Of a DNA stretch of 64,000 bases, positions 7,619 through 54,696 are shown piece by piece. Location of the stretch: assembly GCA_902594515.1 (NCBI GenBank), contig CACJML010000001.1, forward strand, positions 78,121-142,120. The letters are read 5' to 3'. Every line of letters starts with the position of its first letter. The stretch's first letter is position 1. The stretch comes from an uncultured SAR86 cluster bacterium (GTDB lineage: Bacteria > Pseudomonadota > Gammaproteobacteria > Magnimaribacterales > D2472). Under the pieces are notes generated by a model, which saw nothing but the letters and a program-made list of their open reading frames with translations, had not been told where the DNA came from and did no database searches. The position numbers were made by a program, and so were the translations under genes.

Positions 7619-8344
7619 TTATTCAGCTCTTAATATTAATAAGATTGCCAATACGGAAAGCAAAAACTTTAAGACAGTTTGAAAAAGTTTAAAGTCAATT
7701 TTATTAATTAACCTTCTTCCAGCCTTCGTGCCAAAATAACCCATCAAGCCAAGAAAAACGATCAGAGGAATATAGTTTAATAACGAGAAACCGATAACAC
7801 TCATAAATAATATAATTTTTATTGAATGCTGAAAGACCATCACCAGCCCATGATTAGCCACCAACGACTCTGGTGATAAACTTTTTAGCCTCATAAATGC
7901 TGTGACGATTGGTCCATTTGCACCTATAAAAATACCAGCGACTCCTGCAAGCAAACCACATATTAAATCATTTGCTAAGCCATGCTTAATAAATTTATTT
8001 ATTGGCACCCAGGTTAGAAAGAGAATTGAACAACCAATGATCAAGGTAAGAATATATTCATCAAGGTTTTGAAAAATAAATATCGCGATCAATGACCCAA
8101 TAAATGAAGCCCATAAAATAGTTTTTAAAATCCCAAAGTTAATATGCTCCTTATAGACATACACTCTAGAAATGTTGTTAAGAAGTTGAACAGAGGCATG
8201 CAAGGGTATTAATGCTGATGCACCCACAAATTGCCCTAGGGATGCAAGCATGATCATGCCTCCACCCACACTAAAAATGGCAGTAATCATTGAAGTAAAA
8301 AATGAAATAGCTCCAAGAATTAAGTAGATCTCAAGAGACGTCAA
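7619..8344 (-). CDS. TSUP (TauE/SafE, DUF81) family anion exporter
   Basis: 241 aa and polytopic. The N-terminal ..FFTSMITAIFSVGGGMIMLASL.. is typical of the TSUP family. Confidence 0.8.
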   Translation of the reverse strand: MTSLEIYLILGAISFFTSMITAIFSVGGGMIMLASLGQFVGASALIPLHASVQLLNNISRVYVYKEHINFGILKTILWASFIGSLIAIFIFQNLDEYILTLIIGCSILFLTWVPINKFIKHGLANDLICGLLAGVAGIFIGANGPIVTAFMRLKSLSPESLVANHGLVMVFQHSIKIILFMSVIGFSLLNYIPLIVFLGLMGYFGTKAGRRLINKIDFKLFQTVLKFLLSVLAILLILRAE

Positions 8345-38019: not shown

Positions 38020-40580
38020 TAGATTACAAAATTAATTAGTTTTTCTTTAACATAAATCACCTTCTTGATGTTGTCTAGCTGTAAGTGCTTTGAAACATTT
38101 TCATTAGAAAGCGCAATACTTTTGATTTGCTCTTCTGTTAGGGTTTTTTCGATTTTCTCTTTCCCACGGACTTTACCATTTACTTGAATGATTAATTCAA
38201 AGTTATCATCGAGAATCAAATTCTCTTTGAATTCGGGCCAACTTGTTTCAAATAAACTTTTATCTTGAGAGGAATTAAATTTGGACCATAACTCTAAAGT
38301 TACATGAGGCGCTATTGGGGATAATATCTTAAGTGAAAACTCAATTGCTTCATTAAGACAGTATTTTTGTGATTCTGAAGCATCCTCTTTTTTAAATGAC
38401 TCTGGGATTGCATTAATTAACTCCATTACCGCTGCAATAACGGTATTAAAGGAGTTTCTTTCTTCATAATCTTTTAATACTTTTTTAAGCGTTTGATGAG
38501 ATTTTCTTCTTAATGTTTCTTCCTCTTTATTAAATGCAGATGGCTCTTCAATATTATTAGATCTGCCCTCAACTAAGGTCCAGAATCTCTTGATAAATCT
38601 GTAAGAACCTTCAATTGCATTTTCTGACCATTCAAGAGTCTGTTCTGGAGGAGATGTAAACATCATATATAACCGCACGGTATCAGCTCCATATTTATCA
38701 ATCATCTCTTTTGGGTCCACGCCGTTAAGTTTTGATTTACTCATTTTTGACATGCCATCTTTAAAAACTTTGTTTCCTGAATTATCAAGAAGCTCATCAT
38801 TTTTGTCTTCGAGTGAGTCTTTATTCAGCCAAGTTTTATTTCCTGCTTCATCTAGCACATAAAAAGCATCTGCCAAAACCATGCCTTGAGTTAGAAGTTT
38901 AGTGAAAGGTTCTTCGTTATGAATTAGCTTATTCTCATGCATTAGGATATTAAAGAACCTTGCATACAAAAGGTGAAGGATTGCATGCTCTATACCTCCG
39001 ACATATTGATCTACCGGAAGCCAATAGTTGGCTTCTTTGCTGATCATTTCTTTATCGCTGATACCTGCAAACCTAGCAAAATACCAAGAGCTCTCAAAAA
39101 ACGTATCAAAGGTATCAGTCTCACGAGTAGCATCTTTAGAGCATTTTGGGCATTTAACAGCCATCCAATCAGAAAAGGTTGAAAGGTTTAGACCTTTTGA
39201 GGAAATATTATCAATTTCAGGTAGTTCAACTGGAAGATCTGTTTCTGGAACTTTTACAGGACCACAATCATCGCAATGAATTATCGGAATAGGACAACCC
39301 CAATATCTTTGCCTAGAAATTCCCCAATCCCTCAGTCTAAAATTTGTTTTGACTTCAGCATTATTAGTTTTAACAAGCTCTTTAGTTATCGAATCAAAAG
39401 CATCATCAAAATCCAAGCCATTAAATTGTTTCGAATTAATAAGAATACCTTTGTCTTCTAATGCACCATCACTAACTCCATTATCTTGATCGGACTCAAT
39501 AACTTGTTTGATAGAAATACTATATTTTTTCGCAAACTCCCAATCCCTTTGATCATGTCCCGGAACACACATTACTGCTCCAGTGCCATAGTCCATCAAA
39601 ATAAAATTTGCTATCCAAATTGGAATGTCTTCATTCGTAAAAGGATGAATTGCCTTTAGTCCTGTATCAATTCCAAGTTTTTCTTGAGTTGCAATTGCTG
39701 CCTCTGATGTCGTTATATTTTTATTATTCTCAATAAAATCACGGATTTTTGGATTTGATTCAATCAATGAGATCGCCAAGGGATGATCCATAGCCACAGC
39801 ACAATATGTTGCACCAAAAATCGTATCAGGCCTTGTTGTAAAAACTCTTAAAGCATTATTATGATCTTTAATATGAAAATTGAATTCTAATCCCTTGGAT
39901 TTTCCAATCCAATTTTCCTGCATCAGCTTTACTTGGTTAGGCCAGCCATTAAGCTCTTGGATATTCTCCAAAAGTTTATCTGCATAATCAGTTATCTTTA
40001 TAAAATACTGATCTATTTTCTTTTTTTCTATTATTGCTCCAGACCTCCATCCCTTACCATCGATCACTTGTTCATTGGCTAAAACTGTTTCATCAACGGG
40101 GTCCCAATTTACTTCTGATTCCTTTTTATAAATCAGTCCTTGGTCAAAGAGTTGATTGAAAAAAGATTGTTCCCACTTATAGTAGTCAGGTGACGAGGTA
40201 GCAAATTCTCTGTTCCAGTCGTAACTGAACCCCAAACTTTTAAGCTGCCCCCGCATAGCGTCAATATTTTGAATTGTCCATTCCTTAGGGGAAACGTCAT
40301 TTTCAATTGCAGCATTCTCGGCTGGCAAACCAAATGAATCCCAGCCCATAGGCTGAAGCACATTGAAACCTTGCATGCGCTTAAACCTCGAGATCACATC
40401 CCCAATCGTATAATTTCTAACATGACCCATATGCAATTTTCCTGACGGATACGGAAACATTGAAAGGCAATAGTATTTAGGTTTTTTACTTTCTTTTGCT
40501 GCAAAACTATCCCTTTCATCCCAAAAAGATTGGGCGGCTTTTTCTACTACTTTGGGATTATATGCTTCAGTCATTTTCAA
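38019..40580 (-). CDS. leuS: Leucyl-tRNA synthetase
   Basis: 853 aa. The HIGH-type motif (LHMGHVRNY), the KMSKS motif and the CP1 editing domain are present. Confidence 0.97.
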   Translation of the reverse strand: MKMTEAYNPKVVEKAAQSFWDERDSFAAKESKKPKYYCLSMFPYPSGKLHMGHVRNYTIGDVISRFKRMQGFNVLQPMGWDSFGLPAENAAIENDVSPKEWTIQNIDAMRGQLKSLGFSYDWNREFATSSPDYYKWEQSFFNQLFDQGLIYKKESEVNWDPVDETVLANEQVIDGKGWRSGAIIEKKKIDQYFIKITDYADKLLENIQELNGWPNQVKLMQENWIGKSKGLEFNFHIKDHNNALRVFTTRPDTIFGATYCAVAMDHPLAISLIESNPKIRDFIENNKNITTSEAAIATQEKLGIDTGLKAIHPFTNEDIPIWIANFILMDYGTGAVMCVPGHDQRDWEFAKKYSISIKQVIESDQDNGVSDGALEDKGILINSKQFNGLDFDDAFDSITKELVKTNNAEVKTNFRLRDWGISRQRYWGCPIPIIHCDDCGPVKVPETDLPVELPEIDNISSKGLNLSTFSDWMAVKCPKCSKDATRETDTFDTFFESSWYFARFAGISDKEMISKEANYWLPVDQYVGGIEHAILHLLYARFFNILMHENKLIHNEEPFTKLLTQGMVLADAFYVLDEAGNKTWLNKDSLEDKNDELLDNSGNKVFKDGMSKMSKSKLNGVDPKEMIDKYGADTVRLYMMFTSPPEQTLEWSENAIEGSYRFIKRFWTLVEGRSNNIEEPSAFNKEEETLRRKSHQTLKKVLKDYEERNSFNTVIAAVMELINAIPESFKKEDASESQKYCLNEAIEFSLKILSPIAPHVTLELWSKFNSSQDKSLFETSWPEFKENLILDDNFELIIQVNGKVRGKEKIEKTLTEEQIKSIALSNENVSKHLQLDNIKKVIYVKEKLINFVI

Positions 40581-41922
40581 ACTGCTTCATAAAATTATCT
40601 TCAAGATAATTAATATTATGTTTGTTGTCTTGGAATGTTTGATCATTCATTAATGCAAGATGAAGAGAGTGATTGGTTTTAATGCCCTCTACAAAAAATT
40701 CATCGAGTGCATTTTTCATTCTTTTGATACACGATTTGCGTTTATTTGTTGCAGTAATTATCTTTGCAAGCAAAGAATCATAATATGGTGGCACTGTGTA
40801 GCCAGAGTATATATGCGAATCAAATCTTATCCCAAAACCTCCTGGAGGATGCATTTTTGTTATTTTGCCTGGTGACGGTATAAATGTGACAGGATCTTCC
40901 GCATTAATCCTGCACTCCATTGCATGACCTTTGAAAGTGATTCGGTTTTGATCAAGGACAAAATCCATGCCCAGTGCTACTTTTAGCTGAGCTTTAACAA
41001 GATCAAACATAGTTATCATTTCAGTTACCGGATGTTCAACCTGAATTCTTGTATTCATTTCTATAAAGAAAAACTCTTTATCCTTATAAAGAAATTCAAT
41101 AGTGCCTGCGCCTTCATATTTTATTGATTCACATAAATTCACGCATGCTGTTAATACTTTTTGCGTTTCAACCTCATCAATATCCACAGCTGGCGCTTCT
41201 TCAATAATTTTTTGATGTCTTCTTTGCAGACTGCAATCTCTTGTTCCTAGATGGATCGCTTTACCCTTTCCATCACCGAAGACCTGAACTTCAATATGCC
41301 TAGGATTTTCAATATATTTTTCTAGGTATAAAGTCTCATTTCCAAAAGCATTTTTTGCTTCTTGCTGAGTAATCGAAATGCCTGAGATTAACTCATCAAT
41401 ATCATTAGCAACCCTCATTCCTCTTCCTCCACCACCAGCAGTTGCTTTGATCATTATGGGAAACCCTATTTTCGTAGCTATTTTTTCCAATTCACCCTTA
41501 TTCTCTGGAAGTTTGTCTTTGTAGCCCGGAACTGTTGGAATTCCAGATTTTTCAGCTATTGTTTTAGCAGTAATCTTATCTCCCATTTTTTTAATGACCG
41601 CCGAGGAGGGCCCTATGAATTTAAAACCACTCCCTTCACATTTTTCGGCAAATTCATGATCTTCGGCGAGGAATCCATATCCAGGATAAATCGCATCTGA
41701 GCCGGTCACTTCAGCTGCAGAAAGTATGCCTGGGATATATAGATAACTTTCAAGCGGATTGGAAGGACCTATGCAAACTGTTTCGTCGGCAAATCTTAAA
41801 TGTTTAAGCTCTTGATCTCCGCTAGAGTAGACACCAACTGTTTTCAGGCCAACTTCTTTACATGCTCTAAGAGCACGCAATGCGATTTCTCCTCTATTGG
41901 CAATTAAAACTTTTTTTGTCAT
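40567..41922 (-). CDS. accC: Acetyl-CoA carboxylase biotin carboxylase subunit
   Basis: 451 aa. It has the ATP-grasp N-terminus MTKKVLIANRGEIALRALRACKE. accB lies directly upstream. Confidence 0.97.
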   Translation of the reverse strand: MTKKVLIANRGEIALRALRACKEVGLKTVGVYSSGDQELKHLRFADETVCIGPSNPLESYLYIPGILSAAEVTGSDAIYPGYGFLAEDHEFAEKCEGSGFKFIGPSSAVIKKMGDKITAKTIAEKSGIPTVPGYKDKLPENKGELEKIATKIGFPIMIKATAGGGGRGMRVANDIDELISGISITQQEAKNAFGNETLYLEKYIENPRHIEVQVFGDGKGKAIHLGTRDCSLQRRHQKIIEEAPAVDIDEVETQKVLTACVNLCESIKYEGAGTIEFLYKDKEFFFIEMNTRIQVEHPVTEMITMFDLVKAQLKVALGMDFVLDQNRITFKGHAMECRINAEDPVTFIPSPGKITKMHPPGGFGIRFDSHIYSGYTVPPYYDSLLAKIITATNKRKSCIKRMKNALDEFFVEGIKTNHSLHLALMNDQTFQDNKHNINYLEDNFMKQFEND

Positions 41923-42363
41923 TTAACTAACGGTAATAAGATTTTGATCGAATTCTACAGGCGTTCCATCTTCTACGTTAATAGATTTAATTATTCCAGA
42001 AAAATCTGATTTGATTTCATTCATCATTTTCATTGCTTCAACAATACAAACAACTTGACCTTTTTCAACATGATCACCAACTTCAACAAACGGAGGCTTA
42101 TCAGGCGCTGGTTTTCTATAAAAAGTTCCAACAATTGGGGATTTAATGTGATTTCCCGAAGCATTTGAATCGTCAATATGAATCTCTTCGGTAGTTGTTT
42201 TTATTGCTTGAGTTGCCTGATTTGAAATGACATATTCTTCTGTTGGCGAAACTATGCCCCCTCTCGCAATCCTTACCGATTCTTCACCTTCTTTAACCTC
42301 AATCTCTCTGAGGTCTGAAGCTTGAAGCATTTCAATTAACTTCTTAATTTTTCTAATATCCAT
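41923..42363 (-). CDS. accB: Biotin carboxyl carrier protein
   Basis: It carries the biotinyl-lysine motif [10 protein letters not shown]. 146 aa. Confidence 0.95.
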
Positions 42364-42806
42364 TAGCTACTCCTAAATTTTTTGATTGCTTTATTAACTG
42401 CATCTTCATATCCCCTTATCCCTTTTCCTGAAATTTGTTCAATAGCTATATCTTCAAAAAAAGAATGATGCCTAAACGCTTCCCTGCTTTTAATATCAGT
42501 TATATGGACTTCATAGAATGGAATATCAACAGCAAGAATCGCATCTCGGATAGCAATACTTGTATGGGTAAAAGCTGCTGGATTAATTATGATGACTTCA
42601 ATATTTTCAACACTAGCACCATGTATTTCATTGATAATTTTTTCTTCTGAGTTTGATTGGAAGCAATGCAGTTCACAATCCTGATCCTCTGCTATTGAAC
42701 GAAGTTTAGACTCAAGTTCTTTGAGACTTAAATCACCATATTTTTCAGTCTCTCTTGAGCCGAGAAGATTAAGGTTTGGACCATTAATAAGTAAAATTTT
42801 CATCAC
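42363..42806 (-). CDS. aroQ: Type II 3-dehydroquinate dehydratase
   Basis: 147 aa. It has [18 protein letters not shown] and ..[17 protein letters not shown]... The aroQ-accB-accC synteny is present. Confidence 0.93.
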
Positions 42807-42847
42807 TTTTATAGATTTTTGAAGATTTTAGCAGATTTTTACGTATT

Positions 42848-43297
42848 TTATAGAAAAATGACTGTAGACTTTATTGGGTAGCAATAAGTATTTTCTTTAC
42901 AACCTTGATATTCAACATTCATTGAAACTTTTTGATTGTCTAATCTACTTAATGAAGACTCAACATCATATTCGATTTCAACTTTATTATAAATCACTTT
43001 TTTTATACCCAAGAAGGGATCATCTTTAACAATCCATTTTATTTTATCAATGTTGATTGGTGAGATTTTATGATCTGAAATTAAAGCAAAGGAATCCTTA
43101 TACATATAATATCCTGGCTCAATTTCCCATATTAATTTTAAAGTATTATTATTTATCAAATAGTTAAATTTAAATGCTTGTTCAGGTGGAATAATCCTTT
43201 CATCACCTAAAATGGACTGAATTTTTTCAGTACTGAAGGCGCTTAATGAAATAAGCATTAAGATAAAAAAAGTGTATTTATTAGATATTTTTTGCAT
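42848..43297 (-). CDS. Stand-alone DsbD N-terminal (alpha) domain protein
   Basis: It has a signal peptide. PPEQAFKFNY, LIWEIEPGYYMYKDSF and VEYQGCKENTYCYP parallel the E. coli nDsbD segments PADQAFAFDF, LTWQIKDGYYLYRKQI and VTYQGCADAGFCYPP (C-x5-C). The ORF stops 9 residues after the CYP motif, with no TM or thioredoxin domains. Confidence 0.75.
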   Translation of the reverse strand: MQKISNKYTFFILMLISLSAFSTEKIQSILGDERIIPPEQAFKFNYLINNNTLKLIWEIEPGYYMYKDSFALISDHKISPINIDKIKWIVKDDPFLGIKKVIYNKVEIEYDVESSLSRLDNQKVSMNVEYQGCKENTYCYPIKSTVIFL

Positions 43298-43311
43298 AAC
43301 TTAATCCTCAA

Positions 43312-44664
43312 ATGATAGAAAAAAATCAAAGCATTTGCATCATTGGTGCTGGAAGTACCGGTATAGCAGCATGTAAGAATTTTCATCAAGCAGGTTTAGA
43401 TTTTATTTGTTACGAAGCAAGCGATCAGATTGGTGGGAATTGGGTCTACAAAAATAAGAACCAAATGTCATCCGCTTACAAATCACTGCATATCAATACT
43501 TCCAGAGAAAAAATGGAATACTCAGATTTCCCAATGCCTGATTCCTTTCCAGACTTTCCTCATCACAGCGATATTGCTAAATATTTTAATGATTACGTAG
43601 ATCACTTTGGCTTTAGAGATAAAATTAAATTTAATACATCTGTAGTTTCAGCAATTCTACTAGAGGATGAATCATGGCAAATATCTACCAGCGACGGCGT
43701 CACAAATATTTATGATAATTTGGTAGTTGCAAATGGCCATCATTGGGATCCCAGATATCCTAATCCATATTTTAAGGGTAAATTTTCTGGAGAAACCTTG
43801 CATTCTCATCATTACCTTGAGCCTCATGACCCAGTTGACTGTGTGGGCAAGAATATTGTCATTGTTGGTGCAGGAAATTCTGCGATGGATATCGCGTGTG
43901 AACTTAGTAGAAAAAATACTGCAAACAAAGTTTTCCTTGCTGTTCGCAGCCCTGTTTGGATAACGCCTAAATATTTTGGTTCAACACCCTTGGATAGTTT
44001 TCAAAGACATCCATCAATAAAAGCAAATATTTTTCAAAAAGCATTCGAAAAGATTTTTAGTTTTTTAGCTGACTTTATTCTTACACGCAGAGTTATTAAG
44101 TATATTGGTAGACCAGAAGATATTGGATTGCCAAAACCTTCTCATAAATTTACACAGGCTCACCCCACAATATCAAGCGAGATTCAGCTAAGAATCGGAT
44201 CAGGCGACCTAATAATAAAACCAAACATAGATAATTTTAATAATAAAACAGTTACATTTGATGATGGATCGAAGGAAGAAATTGACGTTATCATTTATGC
44301 CACCGGATATAAGATTTCTTTTCCATTTTTTAGCGATTCTTTTTTAAAAGTAAAGAACAACGATATTGCTTTATATAAAAGAATATTTCATCCTCAATAT
44401 TCATCACTTTTTTTTCTGGGTTTGGTGCAGCCGCTATGCGCAATGATGCCAATCGCAGATGAGCAATCTAAACTACTTACCAGTTATCTAAAAAACACAT
44501 ACAAATTGCCTTCACAAGAGGTGATGAGGCAAGATGCTGAATCCATTCACAATGAGATGAAGGATTACTATGTGGATTCACCTCGTCACACAATACAAAT
44601 TAACTGTTTAACCTACACGGATGATCTGAGAGACGAGTTAAAATTAGGTAGTAGGAGGTTGTAG
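43312..44664 (+). CDS. Flavin-containing monooxygenase (FMO-type class B flavoprotein monooxygenase)
   Basis: It has GAGSTG and GAGNSAMD dinucleotide motifs, IGGNW, and the FMO-identifying motif F-x-G-x-x-x-H-x-x-x-Y, present as FSGETLHSHHY. Confidence 0.85.
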   Translation: MIEKNQSICIIGAGSTGIAACKNFHQAGLDFICYEASDQIGGNWVYKNKNQMSSAYKSLHINTSREKMEYSDFPMPDSFPDFPHHSDIAKYFNDYVDHFGFRDKIKFNTSVVSAILLEDESWQISTSDGVTNIYDNLVVANGHHWDPRYPNPYFKGKFSGETLHSHHYLEPHDPVDCVGKNIVIVGAGNSAMDIACELSRKNTANKVFLAVRSPVWITPKYFGSTPLDSFQRHPSIKANIFQKAFEKIFSFLADFILTRRVIKYIGRPEDIGLPKPSHKFTQAHPTISSEIQLRIGSGDLIIKPNIDNFNNKTVTFDDGSKEEIDVIIYATGYKISFPFFSDSFLKVKNNDIALYKRIFHPQYSSLFFLGLVQPLCAMMPIADEQSKLLTSYLKNTYKLPSQEVMRQDAESIHNEMKDYYVDSPRHTIQINCLTYTDDLRDELKLGSRRL

Positions 44665-48944: not shown

Positions 48945-49929
48945 AAAATACCCAAGCACAAGGCTTAGAAGACTTCGACAATCTAAAACAATAAGAGATT
49001 TAGTTGCTGAAAATACTGTTTCCAGTAACGATCTAATTGAGCCAATGTTCTTAGTAAACTCTAAATCAGATGCAGGCCCTGTAAACTCGATGCCTGGTGT
49101 TGAGAGGTTTGAAAAAGATCAGCTTTTTAGAGAAATTGAGGAAAGTATTAAACATGGCATCAAGGCGTTTGCTATTTTTCCAGTTGTACCAAGTGATTTG
49201 AAGGATGAAAGCGGCTCATATGCTTTATCAGCAGATAATTTTTTGATTAATTTTCTTAGAGAGTTTAGTGAAAGATATCCTGATGTAATTTCAATTGCAG
49301 ATGTTGCGCTGGATCCATATACATCTCACGGGCATGATGGAATATTGGCCAATGACATTGTTCTAAATGATGAAACTAATGAGCTCTTAGGAAAACAGGC
49401 TGTATTACTTGCAGATGCTGGCGCTAGTATCGTAGCACCATCTGACATGATGGATGGAAGAATTGGCGTCATAAGGTCAGCTTTGGACGCAAATAAAAAT
49501 AAAGACACCATTATCTTATCTTATGCAGCAAAATTTGCTTCTTCGTTTTATGGTCCATTTAGGGATGCGGTCGGCTCCAAAACCAATCTTGCAGGTGCAT
49601 CAAAAAAAACATATCAAATGGATGTAAGAAATTCAGATGAAGCATTGCACGAAGTTGCAATTGATGTAGATGAGGGTGCGGATATTGTTATGATTAAGCC
49701 CGGTATGCCGTATTTAGATATCATTTCCAAGGTAAAAGAAAAGTTTCAAATGCCTACTTTTGCATATCAGGTGAGCGGTGAATACAGCATGCTTTCGAAT
49801 GCTATAAGCCAAGGATTGCTTGATAAAAGCGTTATGCTAGAATCGATTGTAAGTTTAAAAAGAGCTGGATCTGATGCAGTTCTTACCTACGCTGCAAAGC
49901 AAATTGCCAAGGAGATAAAAGATGAGTAA
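48934..49929 (+). CDS. hemB: Porphobilinogen synthase (Mg-type, Zn-independent)
   Basis: The start is ATG 48934 ([17 protein letters not shown]..). The metal-site region reads [14 protein letters not shown], which is Asp-rich like P. aeruginosa HemB, rather than the Cys-rich Zn motif. Confidence 0.93.
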
Positions 49930-50248
49930 TGGTGTTTTAGAAGTTTCAAATGATAATTTTGAGTCCGAAGTTGTGAATAGTGAAAAACCAGTACTTGTAG
50001 ATTTTTGGGCTGAGTGGTGCGGGCCATGCAAACAAATTGCCCCTGTAGTTGAAGAAATAGCTGATGAACATTCAGATAAGTTAAAAGTTTGCAAGATGGA
50101 TGTTGACGCAAATAGAGAAACGGCCGTTCAATTTGGAATTAGATCTATACCAACATTATTGATTTTTAAAAATGGTGAAGTTGCAGGATCACAAATCGGG
50201 GCAGTTAGTAAGCAGCAGCTTTTAGAGTTTATTCAAGCAGAAATATAA
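49922..50248 (+). CDS. trxA: Thioredoxin
   Basis: 108 aa with the WAEWCGPCK active site. It lies upstream of rho, as in E. coli. Confidence 0.96.
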   Translation: MSNGVLEVSNDNFESEVVNSEKPVLVDFWAEWCGPCKQIAPVVEEIADEHSDKLKVCKMDVDANRETAVQFGIRSIPTLLIFKNGEVAGSQIGAVSKQQLLEFIQAEI

Positions 50249-53810: not shown

Positions 53811-54275
53811 ATGTTACAACAAGAATTCCTAAAATCGATGAGATATTTAGCTGCCTCAGTCAGTATTATCTCTGCAAAGGATTCAAATGATAAGCCTTAT
53901 GCAATGACGGCATCCTCAGTTACTTCTTTAACTCTTGAACCCCCATCAATCTTGGTATGCGTCAATCATGATGCATCAATTCATGACCATCTATTAAATG
54001 ATGAGGCTAAGTTTTGCGTTAATTTGCTCAAGCAAAATCAACAAGACATCGCTACACTCTGCAGCATCAAAGAAAAAGAAGATCAAAGATTTGAAGATAA
54101 AAATTGGAATTTAGACAGTGTCCCTTTTTTACAAGGCTCTCAATCGAATTTATTTTGTAACGTTAAGAAATATTTAGACTATGAAACCCATACTATAATA
54201 ATTGGAGAGGTTTATAAATCTCATAACGATGATGACTTTGACACTTTGATGTATGCAAATGGAAAATACTTATAA
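53811..54275 (+). CDS. Flavin reductase-like domain protein
   Basis: ..MRYLAASVSIISAKDSNDKPYAMTASSVTSLTLEPPSILVCVN.. is typical of the HpaC/RutF-type flavin reductase domain. Confidence 0.8.
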   Translation: MLQQEFLKSMRYLAASVSIISAKDSNDKPYAMTASSVTSLTLEPPSILVCVNHDASIHDHLLNDEAKFCVNLLKQNQQDIATLCSIKEKEDQRFEDKNWNLDSVPFLQGSQSNLFCNVKKYLDYETHTIIIGEVYKSHNDDDFDTLMYANGKYL

Positions 54276-54696
54276 CTTATTAAAATCATTCTTATCTTTG
54301 TTGTTATGTGCCTTGTGTGCATTATCAATGTTTCATTTGTATGGAGAAGAAACAGAACCTCAGGCATATGTAATTTCTCCAAAAAATGGTGATATTGTTT
54401 CGAGTCCCTTCAAGGTTATATTTGGCCTTAAGAATTTTGGTGTTGTGCCTGCAGGCATTGACCTTGAATTTGCAGGGCACCATCACCTCTTCGTCAACAG
54501 CCCAGGAATAGATTATTCAAAACCAATTCCAGCTGATAAAAATCATTTACATTTTGGAAAAGGGCAGACTGAAACTGTCCTTGATTTAGAGCCAGGTGAA
54601 TATCAACTTCAATTAGTTCTAGGTAATTATTTGCATATCCCCTTTAACCCGAGCATTGAATCAAAAATAATTTCAATAAAAGTTAAAGCCAATTAG
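54253..54696 (+). CDS. DUF4399-family secreted protein
   Basis: It has a signal peptide, then ..PKNGDIVSSPFKVIFGLKNFGVVPAG..AGHHHLFVN..HLHFGKGQTE..LEPGEYQLQLVLG.., which matches my recollection of DUF4399. It overlaps the flavin reductase gene end by 23 nt. Confidence 0.7.
   Translation: MQMENTYNLLKSFLSLLLCALCALSMFHLYGEETEPQAYVISPKNGDIVSSPFKVIFGLKNFGVVPAGIDLEFAGHHHLFVNSPGIDYSKPIPADKNHLHFGKGQTETVLDLEPGEYQLQLVLGNYLHIPFNPSIESKIISIKVKAN

What the first reader, a model, noticed from the sequence alone, without database searches (positions are those of the whole stretch)
42848..43297. Orphan DsbD alpha-domain: the periplasmic redox hub without its membrane electron conduit
The 149-aa secreted protein aligns along its whole mature length with the N-terminal domain of E. 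coli DsbD. The alignment includes the C-x5-C redox pair in VEYQGCKENTYCYP. The protein ends 9 residues after the CYP motif.

The transmembrane beta domain and the thioredoxin-like gamma domain, which normally reduce nDsbD, are missing. Only 41 nt separate the stop from aroQ, so there is no decayed remnant.

The gene sits upstream of aroQ-accB-accC, where Pseudomonas carries full-length dsbD/dipZ as I recall. This suggests domain loss in situ rather than acquisition of a new gene. How this domain is kept reduced is open; a CcdA- or ScsB-like protein elsewhere is one possibility, and it may have a different role altogether.
Basis: partly seen in the sequence, partly recalled or inferred. Interest (0 to 1): 0.55.

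Follow-up and report, generated by a model that had tools for sequence, protein, structure and literature searches.

The report
Stand-alone DsbD alpha domain in SAR86
A small secreted protein in the marine bacterium SAR86 is the substrate-facing redox domain of DsbD; it was left behind when the membrane and thioredoxin-like parts of the gene were deleted in place, it has been kept ever since, and what recharges it is unknown.

Summary
The ORF at 42848..43297 (- strand, 149 aa) is a real DsbD N-terminal (alpha) domain. It matches Pfam PF11412 at E 5e-21 and E. coli nDsbD structures at E 4e-13. An AlphaFold model finds nDsbD as its 18 best PDB matches. The YQGC-x5-CYP cysteine pair and the cap-loop Asp/Phe/Gly are present. 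It stops 8 residues after CYP, and aroQ-accB-accC starts 41 nt later.

The window is from SAR86. The truncated form is not an assembly error: four SAR86 genomes and 35 near-identical 149-aa metagenome proteins share it. Two more SAR86 clades only 33% identical carry a stand-alone alpha at the same locus.

Other Gammaproteobacteria carry full-length dsbD at this position, so loss of the beta and gamma domains in place is well supported. An unrelated GC-rich lineage did the same independently.

The "orphan" claim could not be tested. No DsbD beta or CcdA gene lies in the 64-kb window or within 10 kb of the gene in relatives, but the rest of the genome was out of reach.

The likeliest mechanism is a soluble periplasmic thiol-disulfide relay reduced in trans by a conduit encoded elsewhere, as proposed for separate ScsB-alpha proteins. 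NCBI already annotates this architecture. Interest is moderate to low.

The parts
42848..43297 (-). Gene for a 149-aa stand-alone DsbD alpha (nDsbD) domain protein
   Evidence: Pfam PF11412 at E 5e-21. NCBIfam DsbD model matched only over its N-terminal 136 of 574 positions, 78 bits against a cut-off of 330. PDB nDsbD at E 4e-13. AlphaFold model with mean pLDDT 80; Foldseek top 18 hits are all nDsbD, target-normalised TM 0.64-0.85.
43232..43297 (-). Predicted Sec signal peptide (residues 1-22, MQKISNKYTFFILMLISLSAFS); no lipobox cysteine
   Evidence: Read from the sequence: a Lys-containing n-region, a 14-residue hydrophobic core, then small residues A-F-S. The model has low pLDDT and a helix here. 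No dedicated signal-peptide predictor was available, so this is an inference.
43007..43024 (-). Cap-loop equivalent (residues 92-97, DDPFLG; E. coli D68-E69-F70-Y71-G72)
   Evidence: Alignment to 1L6P. D93 and G97 are invariant across 11 stand-alone alpha proteins. Residues 93-98 are invariant in 35 close homologues.
42875..42910 (-). Active-site motif YQGCKENTYCYP (residues 130-141); Cys133 codon at 42899-42901, Cys139 codon at 42881-42883
   Evidence: Aligned to E. coli Cys103/Cys109. QGC-x5-CYP is kept in 35 of 35 149-aa homologues and in 52 of 52 139-aa homologues. It is invariant in alignments A2 and A3.
42807..42847 (-). 41-nt spacer between the alpha stop codon and aroQ; the site of the former beta-gamma coding region
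   Evidence: Coordinates. No terminator-like site in 41800-43800. Relatives carry about 1.3 kb of beta-gamma coding sequence, with or without a redoxin gene, at this position.
40567..42806 (-). aroQ (42363..42806), accB (41923..42363) and accC (40567..41922), probably co-transcribed with the alpha gene
   Evidence: Pfam DHquinase_II, Biotin_lipoyl and biotin carboxylase domains. The same gene order follows full-length dsbD in other Gammaproteobacteria.
43312..44664 (+). Divergent FMO-like monooxygenase gene, start codon 14 nt from the alpha start; context only, not part of the redox system
   Evidence: Pfam FMO-like at E 8e-87. The same divergent pair occurs in SAR86 locus L072. It is absent from locus L010.

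Best explanation
The gene encodes a secreted, redox-active DsbD alpha domain that is a separate protein.

Origin: it is what remains of an ancestral full-length dsbD at the conserved locus fxsA/cutA - dsbD - (TlpA-like redoxin) - aroQ - accB - accC. The roughly 1.3 kb encoding the transmembrane beta domain and the thioredoxin-like gamma domain was deleted cleanly, early in the SAR86 lineage (order Magnimaribacterales).

Retention: the remnant was kept as a working gene. Its Cys-x5-Cys pair, the GYY tyrosines and the cap loop are conserved across SAR86 clades whose alpha proteins are only 33% identical.

Inferred mechanism: in the periplasm it works as in DsbD, as the substrate-facing thiol-disulfide relay that hands electrons to partners such as CcmG, DsbC/DsbG-like or TlpA-like proteins. 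Having no tethered gamma domain, it must be re-reduced in trans. The donor would be a conduit encoded elsewhere: CcdA or an alpha-less DsbD, acting through an exported thioredoxin-fold protein or domain, and ultimately cytoplasmic thioredoxin.

Shown here: identity, fold, catalytic residues, conservation, synteny, deletion in place.
Inferred: export, the trans reductant, the substrates.
For: Identity and fold.

Real and conserved:
- 149-aa orthologues at 91-98% identity in four SAR86 genomes: MED-G82, the single-cell genomes AH-324-F14 and AG-917-F05, and TMED104.
- 45 close homologues in metagenomes. All 35 full-length ones keep QGC-x5-CYP, and residues 128-141 and 93-98 are invariant.
- Within the clade, dN/dS is about 0.15-0.45 in most pairs, based on few substitutions.

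Deep conservation at the same locus:
- L072 clade: Abhydrolase-FMO | alpha-aroQ-accB-accC, alpha 33% identical.
- L010-12 clade: rho-trxA-hemB-ilvD-ABC | alpha-aroQ-...-leuS, alpha 33% identical.
- Members of related clusters are named '[SAR86 cluster bacterium]' and lie on contigs of 1.23 and 1.34 Mb.

Ancestral state: full-length dsbD directly upstream of (redoxin-)aroQ-accB-accC in L006, L013, L014, L017, L029, L040, L049, L052 and L056.

An independent parallel: a 57-58% GC gammaproteobacterium (1.35-Mb contig) has a tandem-alpha-only gene followed by the TlpA-like redoxin and aroQ-accB-accC, with no beta-gamma DNA between them and intact neighbouring genes, in four contigs. Keeping the alpha domain together with a likely substrate while losing beta-gamma argues for an electron source elsewhere.

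Precedent:
- Separately encoded ScsB-alpha proteins occur in many alphaproteobacteria. [quoted passage not shown]
- From my own knowledge: Katzen and Beckwith (Cell 2000) reported that E. coli DsbD split into three co-expressed polypeptides regains function.
Against: No partner was found. There is no DsbD beta, CcdA or exported thioredoxin-fold gene in the 64-kb window or in the flanks of relatives. An AT-biased metagenome scan for the beta-domain motif returned 54 loci, none evidently SAR86.

[quoted passage not shown] The authors conclude the tether supplies the local concentration needed (PMC2631958). Trans reduction of a free alpha domain may therefore be inefficient.

The alpha protein evolves much faster than its neighbours between SAR86 clades (33% identity against 51-85%). 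That fits relaxed constraint or a changed partner.

Export is inferred by eye only.
Confidence: 0.6

Rival explanations
1. True orphan. SAR86 has lost every DsbD/CcdA-type conduit. The alpha domain then works without a dedicated protein reductant. It could be a disulfide-exchange or redox-buffer protein, it could be reduced by exported low-molecular-weight thiols, or its conserved disulfide could be structural in a protein that now has a binding or chaperone-like role.
For: No beta, CcdA or exported thioredoxin-fold gene in 64 kb or in the flanks of relatives. No SAR86-like alpha-less DsbD in the metagenome scan. The alpha protein diverges faster than its neighbours. SAR86 genomes are heavily reduced, at 1.05-1.66 Mb (PMC11582366). 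A second, unrelated lineage made the same deletion.
Against: Only about 5% of a genome was inspected, and the metagenome scan required one exact, codon-biased motif. The active-site residues and cap loop needed for regulated thiol-disulfide exchange are strictly kept. In the ScsB-alpha precedent, all but one organism had a conduit elsewhere (PMC3322552). From my own knowledge, SAR86 respires with c-type cytochromes, whose maturation normally uses DsbD or CcdA.
Confidence: 0.2
2. Redundant leftover. A second, full-length dsbD elsewhere in the genome does the real work, as in the DsbD1/DsbD2 pairs I recall in Pseudomonas and Legionella. This alpha-only gene would then be a dispensable or weakly selected remnant, or an extra substrate adaptor fed by that paralogue's gamma domain.
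For: A second conduit would explain why beta-gamma could be deleted here twice independently. Selection on alpha is somewhat relaxed: dN/dS up to about 0.4 within the clade against 0.05-0.15 for aroQ, and 33% identity between clades.
Against: A dispensable remnant would not be expected to survive, with an intact reading frame, signal peptide and every catalytic residue, in at least three deep SAR86 clades that otherwise shed genes. No SAR86 full-length DsbD was seen. The AT-rich full-length hits in the scan carry SUP05-like contexts, with sulfur-oxidation genes nearby.
Confidence: 0.15
3. Artefact or pseudogene. A frameshift or misassembly hides a full-length dsbD, or the ORF is a decaying fragment.
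For: Many database 'DsbD_N-only' proteins of 230-310 aa are such artefacts: L007 has a scaffold gap, and L069, L153 and L154 are frameshift-ridden long-read assemblies.
Against: There is no room for beta-gamma: aroQ starts 41 nt after the stop. The same 149-aa ORF occurs in two single-cell genomes, two metagenome-assembled genomes and dozens of metagenome assemblies. Catalytic residues are invariant.
Confidence: 0.02

Closest known systems
N-terminal (alpha) domain of E. coli and Neisseria DsbD (nDsbD; PDB 1L6P, 1JPE, 3PFU, 1VRS, 6DPS)
   Same: Same Pfam family and the same immunoglobulin-like fold. Same Cys-x5-Cys pair in YQGC...CYP. The GYY tyrosines and the cap-loop Asp/Phe/Gly are present. 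It carries an N-terminal export signal.
   Different: It is a complete protein rather than a domain, with no tether to a membrane beta domain or a gamma domain. It is about 25% identical to E. coli nDsbD. The cap loop reads DDPFLG rather than EDEFYG.
Separately encoded ScsB-alpha proteins of alphaproteobacteria (Cho et al. 2012, mBio, PMC3322552)
   Same: The substrate-facing alpha domain of a DsbD-superfamily reductase is encoded as its own secreted protein. The proposed chain is CcdA -> thioredoxin-like protein -> alpha.
   Different: ScsB-alpha belongs to a different alpha family (COG4233) that, according to that paper, cannot be aligned with DsbD-alpha. The authors read it as a pre-fusion state. 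Here the synteny shows a secondary loss from a fused gene.
Split-DsbD experiments (Katzen and Beckwith, Cell 2000; cited from my own knowledge, not in the library)
   Same: The alpha domain, expressed as a separate periplasmic polypeptide, can take part in the beta -> gamma -> alpha cascade.
   Different: That is an engineered, over-expressed system in E. coli, with beta and gamma supplied. Mavridou et al. 2009 (PMC2631958) could not trap an alpha-gamma complex in vivo without the membrane tether.
Tandem-alpha-only gene plus TlpA-like redoxin in a GC-rich gammaproteobacterium
   Same: The same locus and the same clean loss of beta-gamma, with alpha retained.
   Different: It has two alpha domains (272-292 aa) and keeps the adjacent redoxin gene. 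The organism is unrelated to SAR86: 57-58% GC, and its AccC is 54-56% identical to the window's, no closer than that of other Gammaproteobacteria.
CcdA and alpha-less DsbD ('No_alpha' forms in PMC3322552; L068, L015 and L046 here)
   Same: These are the complementary half of the same system, a membrane conduit without an alpha domain. They are candidate partner types.
   Different: They are not homologous to the protein in question. None was found in SAR86 sequence.

Membership tests
DsbD_N / nDsbD domain family (Pfam PF11412) | Sequence match to the family profile above the curated threshold, over the whole domain | tested here: met
   75.3 bits against a cut-off of 25, E 5e-21; residues 33-147 cover profile positions 2-115 of 119.
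DsbD_N / nDsbD domain family (Pfam PF11412) | Immunoglobulin-like beta-sandwich fold of nDsbD | tested here: met
   AlphaFold model with mean pLDDT 80, and mostly 78-95 over the mature domain. The 18 best Foldseek PDB hits are nDsbD, at E 1e-10 to 3e-6 and target-normalised TM 0.64-0.85.
DsbD_N / nDsbD domain family (Pfam PF11412) | Redox-active cysteine pair equivalent to E. coli Cys103/Cys109 | tested here: met
   Cys133 and Cys139 align to Cys103 and Cys109. They are invariant in all homologues examined. Redox activity itself was not tested.
DsbD_N / nDsbD domain family (Pfam PF11412) | Cap loop shielding the active site (E. coli D68-E69-F70-Y71-G72) | tested here: met
   DDPFLG aligns with EDEFYG. 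Asp, Phe and Gly are kept, while Glu becomes Pro and Tyr becomes Leu. D93 and G97 are invariant among stand-alone alpha proteins.
DsbD_N / nDsbD domain family (Pfam PF11412) | Export to the periplasm | tested here: inconclusive
   The N-terminus looks like a Sec signal peptide by inspection. No signal-peptide predictor or experiment was available.
Full-length protein-disulfide reductase DsbD (NCBIfam NF001419, EC 1.8.1.8) | Transmembrane beta domain with two essential cysteines (PF02683/PF13386) | tested here: not met
   The protein ends at residue 149. NCBIfam gives 78 bits against a cut-off of 330, matching only model positions 5-136 of 574. No beta domain anywhere in the window.
Full-length protein-disulfide reductase DsbD (NCBIfam NF001419, EC 1.8.1.8) | C-terminal thioredoxin-like gamma domain | tested here: not met
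   Absent from the protein. The only thioredoxin-fold ORF in the window is the cytoplasmic-type trxA at 49922..50248.
Split alpha + conduit system (as described for ScsB-alpha with CcdA or ScsB beta-gamma, PMC3322552) | Alpha domain encoded as a separate secreted protein | tested here: met
   However, the alpha domain is of the DsbD type (PF11412), not the ScsB type.
Split alpha + conduit system (as described for ScsB-alpha with CcdA or ScsB beta-gamma, PMC3322552) | A CcdA or beta-gamma conduit encoded elsewhere in the same genome | not testable with these tools
   Whole SAR86 genomes could not be searched. The conduit is absent from the window and from the flanks of relatives. One motif-based metagenome scan was uninformative.

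The most novel reading that the evidence does not exclude
SAR86, one of the most abundant bacterial groups in the surface ocean, and independently a GC-rich gammaproteobacterium with a 1.35-Mb contig, have discarded the DsbD membrane conduit altogether while keeping its substrate-facing alpha domain under selection. If so, either reducing power reaches the periplasm by a route not yet described, or nDsbD has a function that needs no reductant.
Probability: 0.15. Interest if true: 0.7.

Novelty: new variant of a known kind. Interest (0 to 1): 0.35.

Why it matters
DsbD is the textbook way in which Gram-negative bacteria carry reducing power across the inner membrane. Its three domains are normally fused, and the tether is thought to matter for electron transfer from gamma to alpha. 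SAR86 is a natural case, conserved across a whole order, in which the alpha domain has worked as a free protein for a long time. It arose by deletion from a fused gene, not as a pre-fusion ancestor.

If a partner exists elsewhere, SAR86 is a natural test of how an untethered alpha domain finds its reductant. If none exists, periplasmic redox supply in a dominant ocean bacterium would need a new explanation.

A SAR86 isolate with a closed genome now exists (HIMB1674, PMC11582366), so both questions can be tested directly.

The result is also a caution for annotation. NCBI already labels these proteins 'DsbD N-terminal domain-containing', and many similar-looking database entries are assembly artefacts.

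Tried and rejected
1. Partner in the window. tblastn with a full-length DsbD, a beta-gamma HMM and a TlpA-like redoxin HMM over all six frames found only trxA. The 8-TM protein at 7619..8344 is TauE/SafE and has no cysteine pair.
2. Partner in the flanks of relatives (L001-L004, L008-L012, L070-71): none.
3. Protein-database search with a beta-gamma profile. The 120 listed hits were canonical DsbDs. The three apparent alpha-less entries were a scaffold-gap artefact (P0252/L007) and contig-end truncations (P0247, P0237).
4. AT-codon-biased DNA pattern for the CxxPMxPILxxIxxG motif.
   - Viral contigs: 0 hits.
   - Metagenomes: 54 loci, 53 with DsbD-type ORFs, of which 48 also carry an alpha domain. 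Real alpha-less forms appear only in L068, L015 and L046, which are not evidently SAR86.
   - AT-rich marine hits with dsbD-aroQ-accBC carry SUP05-like contexts.
5. Beta-gamma profile against viral contigs: almost only short thioredoxin-region matches, and none SAR86-like.
6. Other 'alpha-only' proteins as possible natural splits. L069, L153 and L154 are frameshifted long-read assemblies, with GroEL, UvrD, AccC and others also broken.
7. Literature. Nothing on stand-alone DsbD-alpha or on DsbD/CcdA in SAR86. The supplements of the SAR86 isolate paper hold no DsbD, CcdA or cytochrome terms.
8. Promoter and terminator scan: not above the shuffled background.
9. dN/dS within the clade: the sequences are too similar (dS 0.01-0.09) for a firm value.
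10. The window's exact protein is not on record in the gene-position collection.

Full report
**What is there**

The ORF at 42848..43297 on the - strand encodes 149 aa.
- It matches Pfam DsbD_N (PF11412) at E 5.2e-21 over essentially the whole profile.
- It matches the NCBIfam full-length DsbD model only over that model's first 136 of 574 positions, at 78 bits against a cut-off of 330.
- It matches the solved N-terminal domains of E. coli and Neisseria DsbD, with 1L6P at E 4e-13 over residues 31-145.
- Cys133 and Cys139, in VEYQGCKENTYCYP, align with the redox pair Cys103/Cys109.
- DDPFLG aligns with the cap loop EDEFYG.
- An AlphaFold model built on a 30-sequence alignment has mean pLDDT 80, and its 18 best PDB matches are all nDsbD structures.
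- The first 22 residues look like a Sec signal peptide. This is by inspection only.

Downstream on the same strand, after 41 nt and no terminator-like site, come aroQ, accB, accC and leuS. Upstream, only 14 nt away and divergent, is an FMO-like monooxygenase gene.

**Not chance and not an artefact**

The window is from SAR86.
- Four genomes carry the same 149-aa gene at 91-98% identity with the same flanks: MAG MED-G82, SAGs AH-324-F14 and AG-917-F05, and TMED104.
- 45 close homologues occur in independent metagenome assemblies.
- All 35 full-length ones keep QGC-x5-CYP, and the active-site and cap-loop stretches are invariant.
- There is physically no room for a hidden beta domain, because aroQ begins 41 nt after the stop.

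**How old is it, and how did it arise**

A full HMMER scan of 1.84 billion representative proteins gave 1491 relatives.
- The closest outside the window's clade are full-length DsbDs with tandem alpha domains, about 31% identical.
- The list also holds a set of 136-181-aa stand-alone proteins at 31-38% identity.
- Cluster look-ups place two of the ten clusters checked in SAR86. One member is named 'protein-disulfide reductase DsbD N-terminal domain-containing protein [SAR86 cluster bacterium]', and members lie on contigs of 1.23 and 1.34 Mb.

Two of these divergent clades were examined in context, and both carry the gene at the same place:
- L072: Abhydrolase_3-FMO | alpha-aroQ-accB-accC.
- L010-12: rho-trxA-hemB-ilvD-ABC | alpha-aroQ-...-leuS.

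The alpha protein is only 33% identical between clades, while the neighbouring genes are 51-85% identical. An alignment of 11 stand-alone alpha proteins keeps the Phe of the AF motif, GYY, the cap-loop Asp and Gly, and QGC...C.

In other Gammaproteobacteria the same position holds a full-length dsbD.
- L006 reads cutA-dsbD(738 aa)-redoxin-aroQ-accB-accC-dusB-fis-purH.
- L013 and L014 show the same order.
- So do many AT-rich marine contigs, including SUP05-like ones: groEL-groES-fxsA | dsbD-aroQ-accB-accC.

The SAR86 gene is best explained as an ancestral dsbD from which beta-gamma was excised in place, along with cutA and the redoxin gene where present.

A 57-58% GC lineage, unrelated to SAR86, made the same deletion independently. 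It has fxsA | tandem-alpha-only (272-292 aa) - TlpA-like redoxin - aroQ-accB-accC on four contigs, one of 1.35 Mb, with all neighbouring genes intact.

**Is it an orphan?**

This is the part I could not settle.
- No DsbD-beta, CcdA or exported thioredoxin-fold gene lies in the 64-kb window or within about 10 kb of the gene in any relative.
- The only thioredoxin is the 108-aa trxA next to rho.
- A profile search of the protein database was swamped by canonical DsbDs.
- A codon-biased scan of metagenomes for the beta-domain motif returned 54 loci. Nearly all are full-length DsbDs from other organisms, plus three real alpha-less DsbDs that are not evidently SAR86.

These are weak negatives. Several apparent natural 'splits' in the databases turned out to be scaffold gaps or frameshifted long-read assemblies.

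**Most likely mechanism**

The strict retention of every residue that nDsbD needs for regulated thiol-disulfide exchange, over a divergence that erased two thirds of the remaining sequence, says the protein is still a redox relay.

In DsbD, electrons flow from thioredoxin to beta, to gamma, to alpha, and then to substrates. A free alpha domain must be reduced in trans.

The published precedent is ScsB-alpha. Many alphaproteobacteria encode it separately, and all but one of them also encode CcdA or a ScsB beta-gamma protein. The chain proposed there is CcdA -> exported thioredoxin-like protein -> alpha (PMC3322552). From my own knowledge, E. coli DsbD cut into three co-expressed polypeptides regains function (Katzen and Beckwith 2000).

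The GC-rich lineage keeps alpha next to its probable substrate, the redoxin. That points the same way.

Against this, Mavridou et al. found no alpha-gamma complex in vivo when the two soluble domains lacked the membrane tether (PMC2631958). So trans reduction may be slow, or may need an adapted partner. The fast evolution of the SAR86 alpha protein would fit such adaptation.

My estimates:
- Trans-relay model: about 0.6.
- True orphan: about 0.2.
- Leftover alongside a second full-length DsbD: about 0.15.
- Artefact: about 0.02.

**Comparison with what is known, and novelty**

- The protein is a member of the nDsbD domain family. Profile, fold, cysteine pair and cap loop all pass.
- It is not a DsbD reductase. 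The beta and gamma domains were tested and are absent.
- It works like the separately encoded ScsB-alpha proteins, but belongs to the other alpha family.
- It arose by loss from a fused gene rather than preceding the fusion.

NCBI's annotation pipeline already has a name for the architecture, so the object is not unknown. I found no study of a stand-alone DsbD-type alpha protein. I rate it a new variant of a known kind, of moderate to low interest.

The interest would rise sharply if closed SAR86 genomes prove to lack any DsbD/CcdA conduit. That check is simple now that closed SAR86 genomes and an isolate exist (PMC11582366).

Noticed in passing
L010 7601-7771 (also L011 and L012): In the SAR86 clade with the 139-aa alpha protein, aroQ is followed by a 56-aa ORF and then directly by leuS. 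The ORF matches only the N-terminal third of AccB (56% identity to window AccB). The biotinyl domain of accB and the whole of accC are missing from this locus.
   Followed up: partly
L008/L009 10001-11478; L070/L071 10001-11437: An unrelated GC-rich (57-58%) gammaproteobacterium, with one contig of 1.35 Mb, independently lost the DsbD beta-gamma region at the same locus. It keeps a tandem-alpha-only gene (272-292 aa) coupled to a TlpA-like redoxin gene.
   Followed up: partly
window 43298-43311: The start codons of the alpha gene (- strand) and the FMO-like gene (+ strand) are only 14 nt apart, and 6 nt apart in L072. Both divergent promoters must therefore lie inside the neighbouring coding sequence.
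   Followed up: no
L007, L069, L153, L154: Database proteins listed as 'DsbD_N only' (230-310 aa) or 'beta-gamma only' on these contigs are artefacts. L007 has a run of N between the domains. The other three are long-read assemblies in which GroEL, UvrD, AccC and PrmA are also split by frameshifts.
   Followed up: yes
L068 178-1596; L015 2-616; L046 2-397: These are real alpha-less DsbD (beta-gamma) genes with their own short N-terminus, in 36-37% GC contigs from one sample series (Ga02568xx). The organism was not identified.
   Followed up: partly
window 42848-43297 compared with L072 and L010: Between SAR86 clades the alpha protein is 33% identical, while neighbouring genes are 51-85% identical (aroQ 51-59%, FMO 66%, ilvD 74%, rho 85%). 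It is by far the fastest-evolving gene of the locus.
   Followed up: partly
window 40567-40580: The TTG-start leuS ORF overlaps the end of accC by 14 nt, and accB and aroQ share one base. Gene packing on this strand is very tight.
   Followed up: no
window 54253-54696 and 7619-8344: A small DUF4399 protein with a hydrophobic N-terminus containing CALC, and an 8-TM TauE/SafE-family protein. Neither is related to DsbD or CcdA.
   Followed up: partly
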